Source: Eledone cirrhosa
Taxonomy: Eukaryota
Direction: 5' to 3'
Assembly: GCA_964016885.1 (NCBI GenBank)
Contig: OZ024742.1
Coordinates: 55,738,001-55,802,000, forward strand
Length of the DNA stretch: 64,000 nucleotides
Shown: one piece after another, positions 5,031 to 54,956 of the stretch
Position numbering within the stretch: the stretch's first letter is position 1
Layout of the letters: every line of letters begins with the position of its first letter
Translations under genes and position numbers: made by a program
The notes under the pieces: model-generated
Database searches by the model: none
What the model saw: the letters and a program-made list of their open reading frames with translations, nothing else
What the model was told of the DNA's origin: nothing

Positions 5031-5789
5031 AACACATATAGAGTGACACGGATATGTACTTTAATTTGATGATTAAATGTAGAAACTTGTAGACATCTTT
5101 AATAAAATATTAAACATCCAACAAATGTTTCATAGTAAAAACAAAATTCTTCATGTGTTTTATAATAGAGTCATTGAAAGAGACAAGTGCCGCCAATGAG
5201 AAAGTAATGAAGCAAAAACCTTTGTAGAAATTACTTCAAGTACTCTTAAATCATATTTAATCATATTTATTGGAGAATGAATATTTTTTAGAGACACAAT
5301 ACAGAATATTCTGTTTGATGTTCAAAATCGTCTTCCAGCAACCTATATGAAATGAATATATTCTTTAGTCTATAATCGATATCTGTTCCTGATTAACATG
5401 TCTACAACTTCATACCTTCTATTATACTCATACTGTTGAGATCATACAAAACACAGAAATGATATTTTGTTACAATAGTTAGTTCTACTTAAAGTAGCTC
5501 GTAATGCTTTATGGCACATATATGCTGCCCCCTCTCACTAAAAATATATTAAATAGTTCATCTTTTTCTTTTGATTAGTTTTTATTTATTCACCGTAGGA
5601 AAATAATATTACATTGCAGTTTGATTCAGTATATCTCTTCGCAATAACGTGTTTCAGTCACGCTGCACAGCAACTTGGATAAATGTTTATAGTATAATCT
5701 CACTTTTACTAATGTCTGGTGATATGAATTTAATAAAAGCAAACTACACAAGACCATCGTATATATATGTATATACGTTTAAATTTTGT

Positions 5790-7430
5790 GGTTTCCACTG
5801 GGTAGAATTGGTTATTCTGCAATGTTAACCTGACGTAATATGAGGAAAGCACTCGACGTAACGCAAATGATCCATCTTCAATATTGAATTATGTTGGTGG
5901 TGCGGGAACGGAGTAAATGTATTATAAAGTGAAATAACAGCAGGCCAAATATGTTGAATCTCCTTATTTTTTTATTACTGTAAACACTGCACATTTCAGT
6001 GGCTAGGTTTCGTAAAAACCCGGTGACCTCATCAGGTGTAAATTGCGCAGTAGATGTATACCAACGGGATTATGGTGAAGAGGAAAAATTGTGTGCTAAG
6101 TCTTTTGACTCAGAGACGGACGATGTAGCATACTGCTACATTGCTTGCCCTCCTCTGAGTGAAGTCGTTTTTAACAAACTTTTGCTAGCGGGTAGGTGGA
6201 TGAATAATCCACTTGGCGAGATAATCCTATATGCCAACTCCAGCAGGCTTTGGACAGAGGCCAGTGAGGCGGAAAGTATCGTGTTACAGAGAATGGTGAT
6301 TCACCAGGGTCTAGCTGAGGTGTATGCACTCACGGAAAGCATACTGGGATGGGGGTCAGGAATATATCAAATAGAGAAACAAATTTCCGGTTAGAAATGT
6401 ATATAATTAGGAGTTAGGGTTAAGTTTAGGAATTAGAGATTAAAACTGAGTGGTTAAATAAGGAGACCAGTTACGTTAATGATTCCAATTATAGAGTTGG
6501 GTAAATCAGGGACCTAATAAGACAAATAACACAATGTTAGTTAAGCTAAGCTCAGTTGCTATCTGCTTCTAATTCCCCTCATAACTCAATGGTATATTAA
6601 ATTACGATAGTAGTAAGGTATAGAGGTTAACAACAACTAACAATACTCGACTTGAGCACTAACTTCACTAGCATGGATGGCTACGAATACATGGCATGTT
6701 ACGACACCGGCTGGCTATGGTTACCCTTTTAACTGCATTCGGGGAGACTGTGTTGTCCACCCCTTTGCGTGCTTGGAAACAAACTTAATTTCCCTTTTCT
6801 ACGGTAAACCGTAATTACTCGGAACGGTCGACGGACCTTTGGGCCCTGTGTGTGTTGGGGGAAGAGCCAACTTTCTCAGGTGTTGGTAACCGCCATACCT
6901 TACTACTGTGTACATATATATTTTAATTAAACAATTCTGATGATTGGATAATTATTTGTGTTTGTTTAATTGAGAGCTTTTATTCGGAATGTTGAGCGGA
7001 AATATTTTTTCCTTTGTTAACACTTTGAATTTACCCGCCAAAATCCGGGGTTTGCTTCGCTTGTTGGAAATAACGTGACAACGATACGTTTGAAGGCTGT
7101 CTATTTTAGTGATCGCATTTAGTGTGTTCACACCAGTTTGAGGCAATAGAACGGAATGCTTGTTGATGAAATGAATCCCCTGTTTGATAACGGAATACTA
7201 CAAGCTTACGTATTACGTAAGTTGGATAGATGATTTCAGTTTCATAGAAACATATCAGACGTATTGCAGAATATCGTCCGATTTGTCCAGGTCTGTTCTT
7301 TAATCTGATTAGTTCTTTCGTTACTTTGGTATTGTATGGTTGGGTTTTGCCTACCGCAATTTTCAATTTGTCAAGCTATTTAAACGTATATTATTACTCT
7401 AAGGACCTACCCTTATTGAATGGTTTGTTA
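5790..7430 (-). mobile_element. Old decayed Penelope-like element (family E pLTR plus ORF remnants)
   Basis: 5800-6050 aligns with 54185-54350 and the reverse complement of 54690-54770. It includes CTGATGA..GAAATGTGCA on the minus strand (~5985-6040). 6950-7300 shows weak similarity to the PLE thumb/linker (AGKFKVLTKEKIFP..LNKH). Confidence 0.5.
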
Positions 7431-8399: not shown

Positions 8400-10222
8400 T
8401 AACGCAAATTGGCGCGAAATTCATTATACTTATTGACCAACCAATAAAATTACTTCTCTAAAAACCTGGCGTTTCGAGCCACTTTTTTCCATATAAAACA
8501 AGTAACATTCAAAGACCAACCAGATGTAAGAAAAACCACAGACCCTCCATCTCAACTCTACTTTTGAAAAGCAGAAGAACTGCGAAACCGGTAAAGGAAC
8601 CAAATAAATATATATATTTTTAAAAAAATAAGACTCCTGTTGCATTATCGATTTCATCTTTTTTTCTTTATATATATATATGTGTAATGTGTGTGACGTG
8701 TGTATGTTTTCGTAGGTGATTGTATATGTGATCACGTCCAGTAACTCAGCTGTTCGGCCAAAAGACAGAGATCAAGGATATATGTACCAACCTTCAAGCA
8801 AATGCGTATAGTGTTAGATATTATGAAGTAAATCAACGCGATGTTCCACTAAGACAGTAGTTTCAATATAAAAACAATTAAAATAATAAAGAAATAAATG
8901 CATGGTATATGGTACCATCTCGTCTTTGTTGGTAAAATTCACGTATGCTATTCAATCCTGAAGAAATATTAAGTGACAAAGAATGTTCTAATCATTCATG
9001 CTATATCTACTACCGGCTTTAGAATTTATAAGAATGAGTTGCTGTAACGTGAATTCATAATGGGAGTATTATATTATATCTAATACAAAGCATCCACTGC
9101 TGACGATTAGTTTTTAATATAATTTCATGAAGTATTTTATTTATATTATATACTAAATATCTACTTTGAGCAAATTCTGGTGACGACTAGTTTGATAATA
9201 TATTCCATACAATCGCTCCTCCGTAAAATCGGAGCTACAGCAGCCCATTTGAGGAAAGAGCCCGTGAGGTGGGTTGGCTGTTACAGTGGGTCGGCGGAGA
9301 TGCATTTACAATTTTTTTCCACGGGGCGAAGCCGAAACACTTCTCTGATGTAGGTTTATACTCTACCACCCTCCGCTTTCCGCTTTTCTTTCTTCCACTG
9401 CCTAAAATACCTTGCATTTTCCCTGATTTGTCCCAAATTTATGGCATTTATGGCCTTTTCCTTTACTTTCCCATTTTTCCTTCTTCTTTTTCTTTCTTAA
9501 AATTAGTTTTATCCTTTTTTTTATATTTTCATCGTTATATAACTATGTTTCAATAAATTCATTTCTAGATATATAGTAACCCAAACCTCAGCAAAAATTG
9601 ATATTACAATCAAGAAGATTGGATACCTGATTAGAATATCAAATTTAGGTGTTTAACCTATCGTATATACATTTAAGTATTGATATAAGTCAATGAATCT
9701 GAACATGATATGGCGTGTAAATATATATATATATACGTATATATGGGAAAATGCATGACCCCGACGGCTGAACTTGCCTGTAGAACAATGAGGGATGGGT
9801 GGAGCCGGTTAAGCGTTGAAAGTGAATTCTATACAGCACATTCTGAGACGTCTGAATTCTATACAGCAAATAGAGACGTCTGAAATCGGTCATCGAAATC
9901 TGACGAGCGAGTTCTTCTTAAGAATATTTTGTTTTCCTTTACCGGTTTCACATTTCTTATGCTTTACAAAAGTAGAATTGAGATGGAGGGTTTGTGGTTT
10001 TTCTCGCTTATGGTTGGCGTTCGAATGTTACTTCAGTTTCATCTGGAAAAACGTGGCTCGAAATGCTAGGTTCTTTAGAAAAGTAATTTGGTTGGTTGAT
10101 GGAGTCACGTGAATAAACACATCAACTTTCGCGCCAGTTCGAGGATTATTTATTCTCATTTTTACTTTAAAATAAATATTCTGAAAAAGATTGGAGATGC
10201 ATTTTCGATATCATCTTTTTTT

Positions 10223-10290
<68 letters not shown>

Positions 10291-10437
10291 GTAAATCTAA
10301 AATGCAGCTGCATTTCCGAGTCTTTTTAAGAAAATATAATTTTAAGTGAAAATTACAATAAAGAATCCTCAAACGCTAAGTGGCGCGAAAGTTGATGTGC
10401 TATTCACGTGACTGCATCAACCAACGAAATTACTTTA
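8400..10437. repeat. Dispersed repeat family in inverted arrangement (8400-8670 vs 9925-10230; 10105-10230 vs 10285-10437); another copy at 21610-21790
   Basis: Shared CCTTACCGGTTTC.CA.TTCTT.TGCTTT.CAAAAGTAGA.TTGAGATGGAG segment in opposite orientations. Confidence 0.8.
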
Positions 10438-11599: not shown

Positions 11600-13350
11600 T
11601 TAGCTGTATACTTTATGGAATGTTCTGTGGAATTTATGCAAGCAGACAGAAAACAAGTCAGTGCGTCTATTTATTATAGAATCTAAATTAGATATAATGG
11701 TAAATTTTTTATTTAGACAGAGATTGCAAGTCTTGGATAGATTACTGTTCAAGTATGGAGAAGTAGAAGAAACCTTTGTCAAAGAGATGTTATATTTAAT
11801 ATTTTTGTCTTTCAAGGACCATATGAGTTCTGAGAGAGCCGTGTTGGTTCTTTTAAGTTGGTATTTAAAAGACGAATGATGATTATAAAGACGAGCTTTA
11901 AAGGAGGTGGAAGTGGAGCCAAAATAGGTGAAGGAATTGGTGTCAGTTATAACTTTACATTCGTAGATTAAATTTTTATCAAGACAATGGTTGTTGAGAG
12001 GACATTTATTTTTAACAGGGCAATTGCAATTGCGATTAGAGAGATTATTACGAGAGACCTAGTGTTATCTATAGAAGGAATTGGATTGGAGAAGTTATTT
12101 GCGATAGGAATAATAGTTTCTTGATTTTGAATGGGATTAAGAACATTTAGCGAAGTTGTGTTTGACGTTGTATTTGGGTTTGCAGAAATTAGCCTAGAGT
12201 TTACAATGACGTCGGGAGTACTATTACTATTATTATGATATTCAGTGTTGGAAGGAAGAGATTTAGTATTTAGTATTTTATTGTTGTGTTTAGAGATAAT
12301 GTTGGAAATGTTGGAGGATGTCGAATAGGAAAATGTTATAGTGTGTTTGTTAAATATTTTACTATAGATATGTGAGGGAGGGAAGCATTTATTTAAGGCA
12401 CTAAAGAATAATTTAGGAATATTATTATTAATAGAGATGGATAAAGGAGAATTATACCAGATTATGTTTTTGTATCTAGGTCTTTTATGAAAGTTATTGG
12501 AATGATCATGATTAATTATTCTACTGTAAGATCTTCTAGAATTTGTTTCTTTACTATATTTGATTTTATCAGGATAGCCGGCTTTAGAAAGCGCGTTATT
12601 ATAGTAATTGGCGTTAGCATCAAAGATGTTTTTATTAGAAGATAGGTTAGATATTCTTTTTCCAATATTACTAACTATAGCATTCTTAATATTAATAGGG
12701 TGGTTAGATTTAAAATTAACATAATTTAGATTCTCATTGTTTTTATGGTAAGGGTAATATAGGCCAGTGTCAAGATTAAGAGATACATCCAAGAAATTTG
12801 TTAGTTTGATGCTGTTATCAAATTCAATTTTTAAGTTATGTTGGTTAAAGAGATTACGTATATTGTTCTTAATAATATTAAGGTTAAATATGTTGCAATT
12901 TAAGATAGTAAAGAGTCCATCGTCACGATAAATTCCACCGCGAAGTTGAGGAATTTTCCGACTCAAAGAGTTCAAAATAAAGATACCAATTAAATCTGTC
13001 AATTGGGATGAATCGGATGCAACCATTGTGATGTCGAAGTTGTTAGAGGTATCAGCTCTGGTCCAATATTCATTGTTGAACTCTAGGATGGTTTTACGTG
13101 CGGTGAGAATGATGTGAAGTTCATCTGTGGTGATGTCAGAATATTTAAATGCGAAAGATAGAGCATTGTTGAGAAGTGAAGGCGAAATAGAAGAATAGTA
13201 GCTGGCAATATCAAATTGAACAAATTTTAGTTTGTTTTTATTATTCAATTTGTTGAACCAGCCAATCACTTCAGAAGTACCAAACCATAAGTTTAAGTTC
13301 AAAGAAGAGCAATTAGAACGAACCTGTAGGATAATTCTATCCAAGATGGC
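11600..13350 (-). pseudogene. PLE reverse transcriptase + Asn-rich linker + GIY-YIG endonuclease (5'-truncated, frameshifted near 12050)
   Basis: Motifs FVQFDIASYYSSI, GGIYRDDG, NFLDVSLNL, YVNFKSNHP, IIWYNSP; then, in another frame, CNC..KCPL..CLDKNLIYEC..TYFGSTST and CNLCLNKKF..INRRTDLFSVCLH. Confidence 0.92.
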
Positions 13351-14389
13351 ATTACTAACATAATTTAGGTTCTCATTGTTTTTATGGTAAGGGTAATATA
13401 GGCCAGTGTCAAGATTAGATTCTATAATAAATAGACGCACTGACTTGTTTTCTCTCTGCTTGCATAAATTCCACAGAACATTCCATAAAGTATACAGCAA
13501 TTATCCAATACTTTATCAATTTAGAATCCTTTTCTCAAAGGCACATATATATATACTTCTTTAAAAATATACCCATCTTTCTACCTTAGTTCAAAGTTAT
13601 TTATTATACATTATATAATACTTGTTACTCATTCTCATCACTCCTATTTATCACTTCCCTTTCTTTCTTTTCCTTTTCTTTTAATTTCTAACCCCTAATC
13701 TGTACCTTTTTCTCACTGTGCCTAACATAGAAACAATTATTACACAATACAATATATTCTTACTTCATATCACCTTGAAGAAATCCTTCGTAAACATAAA
13801 CATTTTTTTGATGTTAGATTATTCATCCTCAATTCATTATTTTTTTCTCACTTTCATGCTCATCTATTTCATCCTATCTTCTACTTTTTTCACAATATAC
13901 CCTTACTTACATTACCTTTGCTATTTTTAATAATACATATCAACATTTTCTTTCAATCGCACATATTATTGAATCCTTAAATATTATTCTTAATACATAT
14001 TAACAATTTCGTTTCATCGCACATATTATTAAACCCTTCAATATACAAACCTTTACTTTACATTATTTTTCTCTTCGTTAATTTTCAAATTCTTTTAATT
14101 TATACATTATCTTCCAACGGTTTTTCAACCTCTCTATGTAAAACAATATATTTTTCTCAGTTATAAAAGATATCTCTCTCTCTCTATCACCCATCTCTCC
14201 TCCTTCCTCATTATACTCCTCCCCCTCCACTTTTTACTCTCATCTCCTCCTCTGTTTCATCCTTTCCACCCACACCCCCTCAAAAATTTGTTTTCCCAAT
14301 ATCACACATCAATCTAAAACTACTTTTCATATGTTGATTTAAAACTGCACTATCCACAAGTGTTTTTTAACCTTCATATCATGTCTTCC

Positions 14390-14611: not shown

Positions 14612-15283
<672 letters not shown>

Positions 15284-15451: not shown

Positions 15452-15707
15452 TATATACATATACATATATATACAGGTATATATATATATAAATATATAT
15501 ATATACATATATATATATACATATATATATACATATACATATATATATACATATATATATACATATATATATACATATACATATATATATATATATCTAC
15601 ATATATATATATATATACATATATATATACATATATATATACATATATATATACAGATACACATATATACAGGTATATATATATATATATAAATATATAT
15701 ATATATA

Positions 15708-17204
15708 TTGTTATACTTGGGGAGGGTCATATTTGTGTAATATTGCCAGAATTAATAACAGAACACACTCACTGTTTGGTTGGTTTTCGCTTCTCGCTTC
15801 TGTGTCTTTTATATCGGTAATCTAACTTACTCGATCCTCAATGTTGCCATTGACTGACCGGCGGTCAAAAATAATACAGATACAATATAGACACAAACAC
15901 ATATATATAGTTTATCATAAATCTTTCGTTGCACATCTGCAACATCGTCAGTGGTGCTCTATTTTCCTCCTGTTGTATTGTATGTCTACGCCATTTTTAT
16001 TCAGTCTGTCTATATATTTATTTATTTATTTGCTTGTTTGTTTATTTTAATTTGTCTTCTTTGCGCATGCGTTTGCGTGTGTGTATAGTGTTTTGTTTGC
16101 TGTGTTATGGGTGACTAGTGTGTGTTTATGTGCTTGTTGTTATTGTGCTTGTGTATGTATTTATTTATTTATTTATTTATTTATTTTATTTTATTTACTT
16201 ATTTATACTTCTTTTAGGTCAGTGTTGTTTGTTTGGGTGTTGTTGTTATTCCATTCATTCTTTCTGTTTAGCCTTGATCTTCTAATTTCTATTTCACTGG
16301 CCTCTCTGTTTTGCCTATCTGCTGGGTCATTTCTATGTTTAGATATTATTCTAATTTCTATGTTGTCTATGTTACCGTCATGTTGTTGTCTAGCATGTTC
16401 GTATAGTACTGACCCGTTTTTTCGTCCTTTTAGTTCCCCCCAGTGTTGGTCTATCCTTTCCCTTATGGTACGAGCTGTCTCACCTATGTATGTTGTTGTC
16501 ATGTTTCTGCAAGTACCCTCTGTACATCTTATGCTATAGACTACGTTTCTAGTTTTACAGTTTATCCGGGGGTTCACCTTACATATGATACACTTCCTAT
16601 TGGTACAGTGGGTTTTCTTAAAAGGGTAGGTTTTGCTGATCAGGGATTTTATGGTGGTTCCTGGCTTTTCTACCACCTTTATTTTTAAGTGGGTCTTTCT
16701 CAGGGCCTTTCTACACTGGTTAGCTAATTTCCCTCCAGCGGTAGCGTCCACAAACATGACACTCTGGTATCTCTGTTTGTCGTACCATGAGGTGGCTTTC
16801 CCTATCTTATGTCTAGCCCTATCTAAGCTATTCCATGATTTGCTCCTGTATAATGGGCAAATTCCTTTCATGTCCAGTTCTATGAGGGTCTTATACTTCT
16901 CCATGGCTCCTTCGTATACTCTGATTCTGTCTCTTTGGTTGTAGCCAGAGAACTCCATGCGGTTGATGAAGTGTTGGATGTGTCTTTCCATTTCTGTTGG
17001 GTCGCACATGCGGGACACATTCTTCATCACTCGTACCAAATCTGCGATCAGAATATTAAACTTAGCACTACTGGACATTGCTGAGTTTTTGAGTATTAGG
17101 TATTTGGAGGCCATGGGTTTAGCATAGTGTGAGTGGAGAATTTGGGCTCTCTCGTCTGTAGTGTTAATCCAGAGTTCTGTGTCTAATACAGGTAGTCTAT
17201 TGTT
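15708..17204 (-). mobile_element. Penelope-like element family B, 5'-truncated
   Basis: ORF plus 3' pLTR with HHR, flanked by TA repeats. Confidence 0.9.
16203..17200 (-). CDS. PLE RT C-terminus/thumb + GIY-YIG endonuclease (open frame, lacks a native start)
   Basis: LPVLDTELW, HYAKPMAS, C.NRKCIIC..C, NVVYSIRC..C....YIGETARTIRERIDQH, LYEH...H, RQNREA..I....LNRKNEW. Confidence 0.85.
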
Positions 17205-21414: not shown

Positions 21415-22110
21415 CCCTCTCATATTTGCCATTTGTGGACTTGAAAACAGTCGGGAATATATATTATACTCATCTGGTTAAATACGAAATCTCTATACAA
21501 ATCTGTATAAGTAATAAGAAATAATTCAACAAAGTGATTAGAATCTGAGAGTTTTTTACAAAATGAAAAATAACCGAGGTGTCCTACATTAGTGAAAGTA
21601 TAAGGTGAAAAGATGAAATCTAAAATGCAACTGAAGTCTTATTTTATAATATATATATATATTTACTTGGTTCCTTTACCGGTTTCGCAGTTCTTATGCT
21701 TTTCAAAAGTAGAGTTGAGATGGAGTGTCTGTGGTTTTTCTCACATCAGATGTGAGAATAACCAAAGAGCCTCCATCTCAACTCTACTATATATATATAT
21801 ATACATATATATATATACATTTATATATATATATATATATATATATACATACATACATATATATATATACATATATATATACATACATACATATATATAT
21901 ATACATACATACATATATATACATACATACATATATATATATACATACATATATATATACATACATACATATATATATATACATACATATATATATACAT
22001 ACATACATATATATATACATACATACATATATATATATACATACATATATATATACATACATACATATATATATATACATACATATATATATATACATAC
22101 ATATATATAT

Positions 22111-26830: not shown

Positions 26831-26918
<88 letters not shown>

Positions 26919-27164
26919 CTTATATTTTAACATGCTTCCTTCTATATGGATTTAGTTCCATATACAAGGAAGCATATTGAAATATAAGACATCGTAATAC
27001 GTACACATCAGAGGACCCTCTGAAATTTTATATAGATGTATACATTTTCATGTTTTTGAAGATTCAATCGAATCGAAAATTAATGTATATGAGAAGAATA
27101 TCCTTTCTTTTATTTTATTATTTATTCGATTTCCTTTGGGAATGATCATAGAACATTATCATTT

Positions 27165-27584
27165 GCGGTGGATTGGCAGTATCGGTAGAGAGTCGGACGC
27201 CATGCTTTGACGCATAGAGTTACGGCCCTTGCCATTCTGAGTTCAAATCCCGCCGAGGTTGACTTTGCCTTTCATCCTTACGGGATCGATAAAATAAAGT
27301 ACCAGTAGTGCACTGGGAAATTGCTGGCCTTGTGCCAAAAGTAGAAACAATTATCATTTATATATATACTCCAGTACTGGAATATATATATAAATGATAA
27401 TTGTTTCTACTTTTGGCACTAGGCCAGCAATTCTCCAGTGCATTACTGGTACTTTATTTTATCGACCCCGTAAGGAGGAAAGGCAAAGTCAACCTCGGCG
27501 GGATTAGAACTCAGATCGTAAAGGGACGTAACTATGCTGGAAAGCATGGCGTCCGACCCTCTACCGATACTTACAATCCACCGC
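27165..27584. mobile_element. Two tRNA-derived SINEs, tail-to-tail inverted
   Basis: B-box GAGTTCAAATCCC; body GACTTTGCCTTTCATCCTT..GATAAAATAAAGTACCAGT; tail GGCCTTGTGCCAAAAGTAGAAACAA; mirrored across TCCAGTACTGGA. Confidence 0.9.
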
Positions 27585-29387: not shown

Positions 29388-29449
<62 letters not shown>

Positions 29450-29452
<3 letters not shown>

Positions 29453-30836
29453 GATAATTAGAAACTCAGCAATGTCCAGTAGTGCTAAGTTTAATATTCT
29501 GATCGTAAATTTGGTACGAGTGATGAAGAATGTGTCCCGCATGTGCGACCCAACAGATATGGAAAGACACATCCAACACTTCATCAACCGCATGCAGTTC
29601 TCTGGCTACAACCAAAGAGACAGAGTCAGAGTATACGAAGGTGCCATGGAGAAGTATAAGACCCTCATAGAACTGGACATGAAAGGAATTTGCCCATTAT
29701 ACAGGAGCAAATCATGGAATAGCTTAGATAGGGCTAGACATAAGATAGGGAAAGCCACCTCATGATACGACAACCAGAGATACCAAAGTATCATGTTTGT
29801 GGACGCTACCCCTGGAGGGAAATTAGCTAACCAGTGTAGAAAGGCCCTGAGAAAGACCCACTTAAAAATAAAGGTGGTAGAAAAGCCAGGAACTACCATA
29901 AAATCCCTGATCAGCAAAACCTACCCTTTTAAGAAAACCCACTGTACCAATAGGAAGTGTATTATATGTAAGGTGAACCCCCGGATAAACTGTAAAACTA
30001 GAAACGTTGTCTATAGCATAAGATGTACAGAGGGTACTTGCAGAAACAAGACAACAACATACATAGGTGAGACAGCTCATAGCATAGGTGAAAGGATAGA
30101 CCAACACTGGGGGGAACTAAAAGGATGAAAAAACGGGTCAGTACTATACGAACATGCTAGACAACAACATGACGGTAACATAAACAACATAGAAATTAGA
30201 ATAATATCTAAACATAGAAATGACCCAGCAGATAGGCAAATCAGAGAGGCCAGTGAAATAGAAATTAGAAGACCAAGGCTAAACAGAAAGAATGAATGGA
30301 ATAACAACAACACCCAAACAAACAACACTGACCTAAAAGAAGTATAAATAAGTAAATAAAATAAAATAAATAAATAAATAAATAAATACATGCACAAGCA
30401 CAATAACAACAAGCACATACACACACACTAGTCACCCATAACACAGCAAACAAAACACTATACACACACGCAAACGCATGCGCAAAGAAGACAAAATAAA
30501 ATAAACAAACAAGCAAATAAATAAATAAATATATAGACAGACTGAATAAAAATGGCGTAGACATACAATACAACAGGAGGAAAATATAGCACCACTGACA
30601 ATGTTGCAGATGTGCAACGAAAGATTTATGATAAACTATATATATGTGTTTGTGTCTATATTGTATCTGTATTATTTTTGACCGCCGGTCAGTCAATGGC
30701 AACATTGAGGACCGAGTAAGTTAGATTACCGATATAAAAGACACAGAAGCGAGAAGCGAAAACCAACCAAACAGTGAGTGTGTTCTGTTATTAATTCTGG
30801 CAATATTACACAAATATGACCCTCCCCAAGTATAAC
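29450..30836 (+). mobile_element. Penelope-like element family B, 5'-truncated, two nonsense mutations
   Basis: Near-identical inverse of 15708-17095; TA-flanked. Confidence 0.92.
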
Positions 30837-30956
<120 letters not shown>

Positions 30957-53590: not shown

Positions 53591-53606
53591 AACTAAATAA
53601 ATAAAC

Positions 53607-53645
<39 letters not shown>

Positions 53646-53666
53646 TACACTTATATATGTATACAT

Positions 53667-53700
<34 letters not shown>

Positions 53701-53704
<4 letters not shown>

Positions 53705-54043
53705 CACTGATATTAATAAATGGAAATTATATTTATAAAACCATATTTATCCTATTATATATAATTCAAGGGCACCAAAACATTGGTTCGCTCTCATCAC
53801 ATAAAATACAAAGCTTGTTTTATAAATATTGACATATCCAGGAATGAGACCGTAACGGTTCAAGTTTTACCAGGTAAAACTTGAACCGTTAAGGTCTCAT
53901 TCCTGGATATGTCAATATTTATAAAACAAGCTTTGTATTTTATGTGATGAGAGCGAACCAATGTTTTGGTGCCCTTGAATTATATATAATAGGATAAATA
54001 TGGTTTTATAAATATAATTTCCATTTATTAATATCATTGATAT
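53701..54043. repeat. Near-perfect ~340-bp palindrome with a decayed HHR in each arm (family D)
   Basis: Centre TTTTACC-A-GGTAAAA; about 2 mismatches seen; TATTTTAT-GTGATGA..GAAT-TATATA-TA-ATAGGATA at 53936-53996. Confidence 0.92.
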
Positions 54044-54204
54044 TATACTCCAGAAACATGTCGAGTGCTTCGAATCTGTTATAAATATATATATTTCTTG
54101 AATTACCAACAAATTAAATATCTCTTTGCTTATATATATATATATTGATTTATTGATTTATTTAGGTTTGTTGGTTCACCACTGGATAGAACTGGTCATT
54201 CCGT

Positions 54205-54770
54205 ATGGTCAAGCTCAATGTGTGAGTACGGAGATAATTATTATAAAATAACAGGAGGCTTGACTGGTGTAATTCCTTGAAAGGTTTATTATACTATGAT
54301 CATTTCAATGACCGGGTTCCGTATGAATGCGGTGACATCATGAGGTATTCAAAATATAACAAAGGAATATAACAGATAAAATCAATGGGGCTGAAAATCA
54401 GAGGCAAGAGGATGACCGACCATTTAGCAGCTTCTACCTCGGTTGGCCTGCCTCAAGACTTAAGCGCGGCCGACCCAGGTGGAAGCTTTTAAATGGTCGG
54501 TCGTCTTCTTGTCTGATTTTCAGCCCGATGGATTTTATCTGTTATATTCCTTTGTTATACTGTGAATACCTGATGATGTCACGGATTCATACTGAACCCG
54601 GTCATTGAAATGATCATAGTACAATAAATCTTTCAATGATTTATACCAGTCCAGCCTCCTGTTATTTTAAAATAATTAACTCCATACTCGAACCACCAAC
54701 TACACACACGAAGACGGGTGAGTTGCATTACGTTGAGTGCTCTCCATAATATTACATTGAGGTTGACCAT
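54205..54770. mobile_element. ORF-less hairpin element with HHR motifs on both strands (family E)
   Basis: 54224-54448 pairs with 54468-54689; outer 54205-54221 pairs with 54754-54770. Confidence 0.85.
54565..54625 (+). ncRNA. Hammerhead ribozyme motif (family E)
   Basis: TAC-CTGATGA-stem II-GAAA-TGATCA-TA-GTA, with palindromic helix III. The mirror copy at 54290-54350(-) has a damaged core. Confidence 0.7.
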
Positions 54771-54956
54771 ATATATATAAGGGGCAATCCGTCAAGTTGT
54801 GATCGTTAGGTGTGATGAGGAGGGTTTGAGAATGTCAGAGACTAGAATTTCAGAATATTTTTATCCATCAGTGATGTTTACTCTATCGATATTAAGGTTC
54901 AACTTATCTATCTTATATATTCGGTCAACTGTAATGTAGTAGATGGACTGTTCGTT

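What the first reader, a model, noticed from the sequence alone, without database searches (positions are those of the whole stretch)
54205..54770. ORF-less rod-like hairpin with a hammerhead on each polarity (retrozyme/viroid-like architecture)
Seen: a ~0.55-kb non-coding element folds into one long imperfect stem, with an HHR on + (54565-54625) and its mirror on - (54290-54350). Established: PLE pLTRs carry minimal HHRs, and retrozymes are non-autonomous HHR retroelements, usually with tandem direct HHRs. Inference: inverted, ambisense-HHR mini-elements (also 14720-15283 and 53701-54043) may be a distinct class of non-autonomous PLE parasites with rod-like RNA.
Basis: partly seen in the sequence, partly recalled or inferred. 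Interest (0 to 1): 0.8.

Follow-up and report, generated by a model that had tools for sequence, protein, structure and literature searches.

The report
Head-to-head Penelope-parasite insertion hairpin
The hairpin is two shortened copies of the ribozyme-bearing end of an abundant 2-kb non-coding mobile element joined head to head, likely made afresh at each insertion by a Penelope-type retrotransposon enzyme, so it is likely an insertion by-product and not a viroid-like RNA.

Summary
It is two 5'-shortened copies of the 3' end of a 1.98-kb non-coding tandem unit (21 full copies seen), joined head to head in (TA)n. The second hammerhead is simply the inverted copy; in this copy its core is mutated. 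Of 72 junction loci, only 4 pairs clearly share a junction, 2 of them segmental duplications; arms run from tens of bases to over 2 kb. The two arms of one hairpin resemble each other, with no fixed left and right arm. Inverted insertions carry one end with a 148-nt tail and one without (50, against 1 tail-tail and 0 none-none), and either arm can be the longer: this points to two priming events on one RNA. The hammerhead motif is supported by stem changes across sister families, but in the rod it costs 82-95 kcal/mol to fold. Inverted ends, tails and opposite-strand hammerhead pairs are published for Penelope-like elements, and this scan reached a like verdict before on another genome. Expression, cleavage and the driver element are untested.

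The parts
54131..54144 (.). (TA)7 target tract, shared with the tail end of the neighbouring family G element
   Evidence: print
54158..54221 (-). Inverted outer piece of the tail (unit positions 149-86), the left end of the insertion; 54145-54157 is an A/T-rich extension
   Evidence: 94% identity
54222..54242 (-). Inverted start of the tail (about unit 1-20); about unit 20-85 is missing on this arm
   Evidence: sequence
54243..54457 (-). Inverted arm: unit positions 1980 to 1765
   Evidence: 87% identity to natural full copy L064
54292..54347 (-). Mirror hammerhead motif with a changed core (CUCAUGA), predicted inactive
   Evidence: sequence
54457..54458 (.). Head-to-head junction, blunt, at the 5' hot spot (unit 1765/1764)
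54458..54669 (+). Direct arm: unit positions 1764 to 1979
   Evidence: 84% identity
54567..54621 (+). Type I hammerhead motif: 3-4 bp stem I, CUGAUGA core, long stem II with U.U at its base, 2-bp stem III with palindromic loop, predicted cut after 54618
54670..54771 (+). Tail, unit positions 1-103, cut short (full tail is 148 nt), followed by a short (TA) run
53701..54130 (+). Family G element: hairpin 53701-54043 plus its tail to 54130; same build (one end with tail, one without)
14720..15283 (.). Family D hairpin: both arms match the 3' end of the copies at 15644-17103 and 29447-30902, the first of which has an open frame of 372 codons
5778..6420 (-). Family B copy, sister of the element (hammerhead and tail 74-80% alike)
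11600..13500 (-). Broken copy of coding family C, Hydra-like by motifs, a candidate type of driver

Best explanation
The hairpin is two 5'-shortened copies of the hammerhead-bearing end of a 1.98-kb non-coding tandem element joined head to head in (TA)n, likely made at insertion when a borrowed Penelope-type enzyme primes twice on one RNA, once from each cut DNA strand. Shown: the unit, its partial tandems, its two fixed 3' ends 148 nt apart, the varied junctions, the one-tail-one-no-tail rule, the likeness of the two arms. Inferred: one DNA strand primes at the tail end and the other at the unit end; both copies run toward the RNA's 5' end, the tail-primed one either stopping at the other primer or displacing it, and the two are then joined. 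Short hairpins are common because many copies end at unit position 1762-1766, a likely transcription start or a stall at a local stem. The driver is likely a Hydra-clade element. The hammerhead is a real inherited motif, predicted to work weakly and as a dimer in single-arm or tandem RNA, and predicted to be locked in the rod.
For: Unit and tandems; 21 full copies with no frame shared by all and no tblastn match to Penelope-type proteins. Junctions: 72 loci, 4 clear sharing pairs, 2 of them segmental duplications. Arms: mean distance 0.049 within a hairpin, 0.085-0.090 between copies, the same for left-left, right-right and left-right; partner arm is nearest for 30 of 82 arms, about 1 expected. 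Ends: 50 tail+no-tail, 1 tail+tail, 0 none+none; without the loci 26, 1, 0; P about 1e-7 given 21 tail and 14 no-tail single-orientation copies. Tail-less arm reaches further 5' in 28 of 51, tail arm in 19, level in 4; in 5 of 51 the tail arm stops inside the tail. TA-rich flank at 72 of 78 tail ends and 64 of 71 unit ends. A purified Penelope protein cuts and extends both strands, starts at two sites and is predicted to be a dimer (PMC11167929). Coding family C shows the same inverted partners.
Against: No RNA, cleavage or insertion assay. The driver was not found: likeness of the element's end to coding family C is modest (0 of 500 shuffles with the hammerhead, 5 of 500 without; family B against C 21 of 500). 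Two pairs share a junction with unrelated flanks (L008/L019, L023/L027), so whole hairpins are sometimes copied, and about ten further near-matches at the hot spot could not be called. Arm likeness could also come from conversion after insertion, and junction variety partly from later deletions at palindrome centres. The window copy is an exception: both arms carry part of the tail, and its arms are 10% apart and not each other's nearest (ranks 66 and 38). Thirteen further inverted insertions have an irregular end. PMC11167929 saw no difference in start site between strands. Samples are top hits of searches, not a census.
Confidence: 0.72

Rival explanations
1. Same by-product origin, but the second arm is made by fold-back: the first cDNA (or an antisense template) primes on itself and copies its own sequence back.
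For: Explains arms that share private changes (27 such; five or so in the family G hairpin, absent at the tested sites from 18 of 18 other copies). Self-priming was proposed for Penelope inverted junctions (PMC3846280).
Against: The second arm should lie within the first. The tail-less arm reaches further 5' in 28 of 51 cases, by over 50 nt in 15, often by more than 1 kb. The tail-less end also occurs on 14 single-orientation copies, so it is a start site of its own.
Confidence: 0.13
2. The two arms come from two RNA molecules, each bound by one half of an enzyme dimer, and arm likeness is due to later conversion.
For: In L023/L027 the two arms differ at a site that varies between subfamilies; several hairpins have arms 8-10% apart.
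Against: Arms of one hairpin do not fall into different main subfamily clades in the tree of 82 arms; the strict tail/no-tail pairing needs an extra rule.
Confidence: 0.08
3. One reading: the hairpin is itself the replicating unit, a rod-like RNA cut by hammerheads in both polarities, like a viroid or retrozyme circle.
For: 17 of 27 short hairpins keep the core pattern on both arms; short hairpins of like size are frequent; two pairs were copied whole, one with the centre flipped against the tail.
Confidence: 0.05
4. A MITE or other DNA transposon with terminal inverted repeats, or an assembly artefact.
For: Inverted repeats, TA targets, high copy number.
Against: Ends are unequal, arms vary in length, single-orientation and partial-tandem copies abound; arms are 13% apart in the window copy, which a read chimera would not give.
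Confidence: 0.02

Closest known systems
Endonuclease-bearing Penelope-like element insertions with inverted 5'-shortened copy and tail (Arkhipova 2013 PMC3846280, passages seen; Craig 2021 PMC8557442, passages and section 11 seen)
   Same: Partial tandems, head-to-head inverted partner, tail on one end only, (TA)n target, hammerhead near the 3' end, an initiator-like TCACT at the 5' hot spot.
   Different: No reading frame; tail is 148 nt against 30-40 nt reported; driver not identified.
Penelope minimal hammerheads (Cervera and de la Pena 2014, PMC4209133, parts 1-2 of 4 read)
   Same: Type I, short stem I, long stem II, palindromic stem III loop; that paper already notes pairs 100-700 bp apart on opposite strands and links them to truncated elements.
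   Different: U.U (G.U in family B) in place of the usual G10.1-C11.1 pair; not matched by Rfam.
Non-LTR retrozymes (Cervera 2020 PMC7229834, passages seen; Li 2026 bioRxiv 10.64898/2026.07.22.740005, part 1 and passages seen)
   Same: Non-coding tandem unit with one type I hammerhead per unit; the axolotl HHR_Amex2 also has U.U at the base of helix II and a 2-bp helix III and cuts weakly (22% in 1 h).
Non-autonomous Penelope-like elements such as MRC1 of Chlamydomonas (PMC8557442, passage seen)
   Same: Non-coding, forms pseudo-LTRs and head-to-tail copies.
   Different: Has a hammerhead, and its ends only weakly resemble the coding family tested.
Twin priming of L1 (recalled, not read here)
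   Same: Two primers from the two target strands on one RNA give an inverted 5' part.
   Different: Here the two copies usually overlap, which makes a hairpin, and both start sites are fixed.
Avsunviroidae and other ambisense viroid-like RNAs (search listing only; features recalled)
   Same: Rod fold with a hammerhead on each polarity.
   Different: Those are circular RNAs with two distinct ribozymes and a fixed sequence; this is genomic DNA with one motif duplicated and a variable centre.

Membership tests
Penelope-like element insertion (non-autonomous) | Partial tandems forming pseudo-LTRs, with variable 5' shortening | tested here: met
Penelope-like element insertion (non-autonomous) | Inverted 5'-shortened copy adjacent at the 5' end | tested here: met
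   64 of 104 complete insertions have two outward 3' ends; 72 junction loci
Penelope-like element insertion (non-autonomous) | Optional tail, present at one end | tested here: met
   50 tail+no-tail, 1 tail+tail, 0 none+none; 148 nt, longer than published
Penelope-like element insertion (non-autonomous) | Type I hammerhead with palindromic stem III in the pseudo-LTR | tested here: met
   221 of 247 pattern matches pair 3 of 3 in stem I, which the pattern left free; 231 of 247 have a self-complementary loop III; cross-type control 50 of 90. Rfam negative
Penelope-like element insertion (non-autonomous) | Ends shared with an autonomous partner | tested here: inconclusive
   Weak likeness to coding family C and shared short motifs around the tail; no coding copy with the same ends among the loci held
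Autonomous Penelope-like element | RT plus GIY-YIG reading frame | tested here: not met
   No match to three window fragments or the 821-aa family C protein
Non-LTR retrozyme | Non-coding tandem unit with direct hammerheads | tested here: met
   e.g. L062, L071, L098; L119/L120 and L118/L125 hits about 2 kb apart
Non-LTR retrozyme | Small unit (150-450 bp, under 1 kb) | tested here: not met
   21 full copies of 1911-2086 bp
Non-LTR retrozyme | Self-cleavage and circular RNA | not testable with these tools
   No RNA data; no genomic sign of the cut site among 186 5' limits
Ambisense viroid-like RNA | Fixed unit replicated whole | tested here: not met
Ambisense viroid-like RNA | Working ribozyme on each polarity | tested here: not met
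   Core changed on - in this copy; fold penalty 82-95 kcal/mol in the rod; prediction only, no assay
Ambisense viroid-like RNA | Circular RNA of both polarities, RNA-to-RNA copying | not testable with these tools
   No RNA data
Hydra clade (family C, candidate driver) | C-terminal GIY-YIG, DKT for DKG, CxCX5C linker, CxxC and CxH motifs, (TA)n target | tested here: met
   Read by eye from the 821-aa frame against section 11 of PMC8557442; Pfam gives only a sub-threshold GIY-YIG hit
Hydra clade (family C, candidate driver) | Placement in the RT tree | not tested
   No reference sequences held

The most novel reading that the evidence does not exclude
A minority of these hairpins have become second-generation mobile units that are copied whole from either strand: L008/L019 share a junction and arm-specific changes in unrelated flanks, and L023/L027 are flip isomers of one hairpin with the tail on opposite arms. 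If this runs through read-through rod RNA of both polarities, Penelope insertion by-products can turn into ambisense, hammerhead-bearing replicons, a genomic route toward viroid-like RNAs.
Probability: 0.08. Interest if true: 0.7.

Novelty: new member of a known kind. Interest (0 to 1): 0.33.

Why it matters
As a class claim it does not hold: the architecture is the usual Penelope insertion pattern on a non-coding passenger. What is worth keeping is mechanistic. How Penelope-like elements make inverted ends and tails is stated as open in PMC8557442 and PMC3846280. This family gives countable evidence (one tail per inverted insertion in 50 of 51, either arm longer, some tail arms stopping at the other start site) that favours two primers on one RNA over fold-back, and that can be tested with the published in vitro system. 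It also shows non-coding, hammerhead-bearing Penelope passengers of 1.4-2 kb, above the size range surveyed for retrozymes. And it warns that a hammerhead on each strand of a genomic hairpin is no sign of a viroid-like RNA.

Tried and rejected
Rfam: no hammerhead at gathering score in the window, at E<=10 in 53600-54900, or at E<=5 in the full unit; the miRNA hits are generic hairpin matches below threshold. Sequencing runs: no RNA holder listed, which says nothing on expression; no reads were laid, so there is no check against raw data. Exact hammerhead pattern in viral contigs: 0. Coding remnants in the unit: none by tblastn; ATG frames of 60-108 codons recur near positions 500-610 in 9 of 21 and near 1100-1170 in 8 of 21 full copies, none in all; one such region gave no Pfam hit, the other was not scanned. 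Search for the driver: family C by protein, families B, F and G by DNA gave no coding copy with this element's ends; family D's end is unrelated (447 of 500 shuffles). Free folding does not give the hammerhead as the best structure even for the isolated motif, so the motif rests on conservation, not on energy. One row of the alignment was the wrong stretch and is ignored. Literature: 'Penelope' + 'twin priming' + 'inverted' gave 2 unrelated papers; searches showed no paper on this family; subscription journals, Repbase and Dfam were not searched, and no supplements were opened (those of PMC8557442 list Hydra families and might hold relatives).

Full report
1. The observation. Window 54205-54770 folds into one long stem (-355 kcal/mol; 100 shuffles -135 +/- 6.5). 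The main arms are 87% complementary and no frame of 100 codons overlaps it. On + there is a type I hammerhead motif: stem I 54567-54569 with 54619-54621, core CUGAUGA at 54570, a long stem II with U.U at its base, GAAA at 54607 and a 2-bp stem III with the palindromic loop GAUC. On - the mirror copy reads CUCAUGA, a change in the invariant core. Rfam does not match either.

2. What it is part of. The window lies in a 3.0-Gb genome. The hairpin as query gave 3508 first-look candidates, 40 scored, and 30 loci that reduce to 27 places including the window; candidates are not copy numbers. These copies sit between (TA)n runs and read: inverted arm, variable centre, direct arm, tail. A query from one odd junction led to copies that run further upstream, and larger stretches showed a 1.98-kb unit that repeats head to tail. 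The natural copy L064:6254-8240 served as ruler. The hammerhead core is at unit position 1879; the 'tail' is the first 148 nt of the next unit. Twenty-one full copies (1911-2086 bp) share no reading frame and match no Penelope-type protein tested. The window insertion maps as [149<86] gap [1980<1765][1764>1979][1>103], so it starts near 54145-54158, not 54205.

3. Is the hairpin the unit that spreads? Mostly not. Of 104 insertions with both ends in view, 40 have one orientation only and 64 have two outward 3' ends. Eighty-eight junction records reduce to 72 loci. Four pairs clearly share a junction: L003/L005 and L081/L084 share their flanks too and are segmental duplications; L008/L019 and L023/L027 have unrelated flanks. 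About ten more pairs come close at the hot spot and could not be called. A pattern for the L008/L019 junction finds just those 2 loci; the L023 junction is matched in full by 2 of 40 scored hits; a pattern for the window's blunt junction type finds 2 loci, both with arm sequences unlike the window's. Arm reach upstream of the unit end runs from under 50 nt to over 2 kb.

4. The arms. Over 27 hairpins, mean distance is 0.049 within a hairpin and 0.085-0.090 between copies, alike for left-left, right-right and left-right. Variants private to one locus lie on both arms 27 times and on one arm 150 times, as expected for arms that start alike and then age. In 41 hairpins (42 offered, L131 dropped because no pair was found) the partner is the nearest arm for 30 of 82, about 1 expected by chance, and the tree shows no left or right clade. 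The window's own arms are 10% apart and are not each other's nearest. Conversion after insertion would give the same picture and is not excluded.

5. The ends. There are two fixed 3' ends, at the unit end (about 1980-1987) and at the tail end (about 148), both flanked by TA-rich DNA (64 of 71 and 72 of 78). Single-orientation copies use both (21 tail, 14 none). Inverted insertions with two regular ends are tail+none 50 times, tail+tail once, none+none never; without the loci, whose query favoured this form, 26, 1 and 0 (P about 1e-7). Thirteen more have an irregular end, the window copy among them. In 51 such mixed insertions (a second script, one more; L023 and L027 both counted) the tail-less arm reaches further 5' in 28, the tail arm in 19, and 4 are level; in 5 the tail arm stops 6-48 nt short of the unit end. 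Fold-back from one cDNA would keep the second arm inside the first, so it fits poorly. Two primers on one RNA fit all of this. That step is inference. It agrees with PMC11167929 (parts 1-2 of 4 read), where a purified Penelope protein cuts and extends both strands, starts at two sites that define the tail and is predicted to be a dimer; that paper saw no strand difference in start site and found the hammerhead dispensable for insertion.

6. Why so many short hairpins. In the sample picked by the hammerhead region alone, 8 of 31 5' limits lie at 1760-1770, including single-orientation copies. The site reads TCACT, the initiator-like motif noted in a Penelope pseudo-LTR (PMC3846280), and is followed by a local stem. 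A transcription start or a stall would both do; not resolved. None of 186 5' limits lies within 4 nt of the hammerhead cut site.

7. The hammerhead. Sister families B (2413 candidates), F (2103; a 1.39-kb non-coding unit), G (1986) and coding family C carry the same build with other sequences. A pattern that left stem I free gave 247 distinct matches in the loci held: 221 pair at all three stem I positions and 231 have a self-complementary loop III; 10 of 11 common stem I types pair fully, against 50 of 90 cross-type combinations. So the motif is under structural constraint. Activity is untested; published motifs of this kind cut poorly and as dimers (PMC4209133), and one with U.U at the base of helix II cut 22% in 1 h (PMC7229834). 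In a head-to-head hairpin each hammerhead comes after its own complement on either strand; forcing the fold costs 82.5 kcal/mol in the window copy and 94.8 in L025, against 19.7 and 12.7 in one arm. Seventeen of 27 hairpins keep the core pattern on both arms, which needs no more than young age.

8. The driver. Family C has 49191 first-look candidates and copies with open frames of about 820 codons, Hydra-type motifs by eye and the same inverted partners. Its end resembles this element's weakly, and short motifs around the tail recur in A, F and C. It is a candidate type of driver, not a shown one.

9. The other two hairpins. 14720-15283 is an inverted pair of the 3' end of a family with coding copies in the window; its + motif has GAAC for GAAA. 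53701-54043 belongs to family G, continues with a tail to 54130, and has the same two core changes on both arms, absent from 18 of 18 other copies. Three hairpins, three families, one insertion pattern.

10. Known and new. Inverted 5'-shortened partners and a tail at one end are described as typical of these elements (PMC8557442; PMC3846280), and opposite-strand hammerhead pairs 100-700 bp apart were noted in 2014 (PMC4209133). I found no paper on this family or on twin priming in Penelope elements in the searches made. New here: a 2-kb non-coding hammerhead unit, larger than surveyed retrozymes, and counts that bear on the insertion mechanism. Left open: the two hairpins copied whole, both within one contig (76 kb and about 700 kb apart), which may be DNA-level copying or read-through retrotransposition.

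11. Verdict. Observation partly confirmed, reading partly supported, new member of a known kind, interest 0.33.

Noticed in passing
L023/L027 (G000:C1, about 271.15 and 271.23 Mb): Two copies share one odd junction in unrelated flanks, but the centre is flipped against the tail: the long arm has the tail in one and lacks it in the other.
   Followed up: partly
L008/L019 (G000:C1, about 283.28 and 282.58 Mb): Two copies share a junction and arm-specific changes in unrelated flanks: an aged hairpin was copied whole, locally.
   Followed up: partly
L020, L111, L131, window 53701-54043: Arms identical or nearly so although the copy has several private changes; points to conversion between arms or to insertion from an aged template.
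   Followed up: partly
L064:6400-6425, L197 and L182 just after the tail end: Families A, F and coding C share a small GCTC...GAGC stem just 3' of the tail end and a GAGTGCT motif within the tail that can pair with it; a candidate signal for the start of reverse transcription.
   Followed up: partly
window 11600-13500; L165-L193: A very abundant Hydra-like Penelope family with many open frames of about 820 codons; Pfam barely detects it.
   Followed up: partly
L197, L206 (family F); window 5778-6900 (family B): Further non-coding hammerhead units (F is 1.39 kb) with tails and inverted partners; several parasite families coexist in this genome.
   Followed up: partly
L064:7085-7275: A G+C-rich block inside the non-coding unit, with a look-alike in family B; role unknown, no Rfam match.
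   Followed up: no
window 10080-10436, 27165-27584, 21708-21788, 26916-26991: More inverted-repeat stretches in the window, probably from other repeat families; not examined.
   Followed up: no
window 53600-54780; L014/L194: Elements of different Penelope-type families stack in the same (TA)n tract, one beside the tail of the other.
   Followed up: partly
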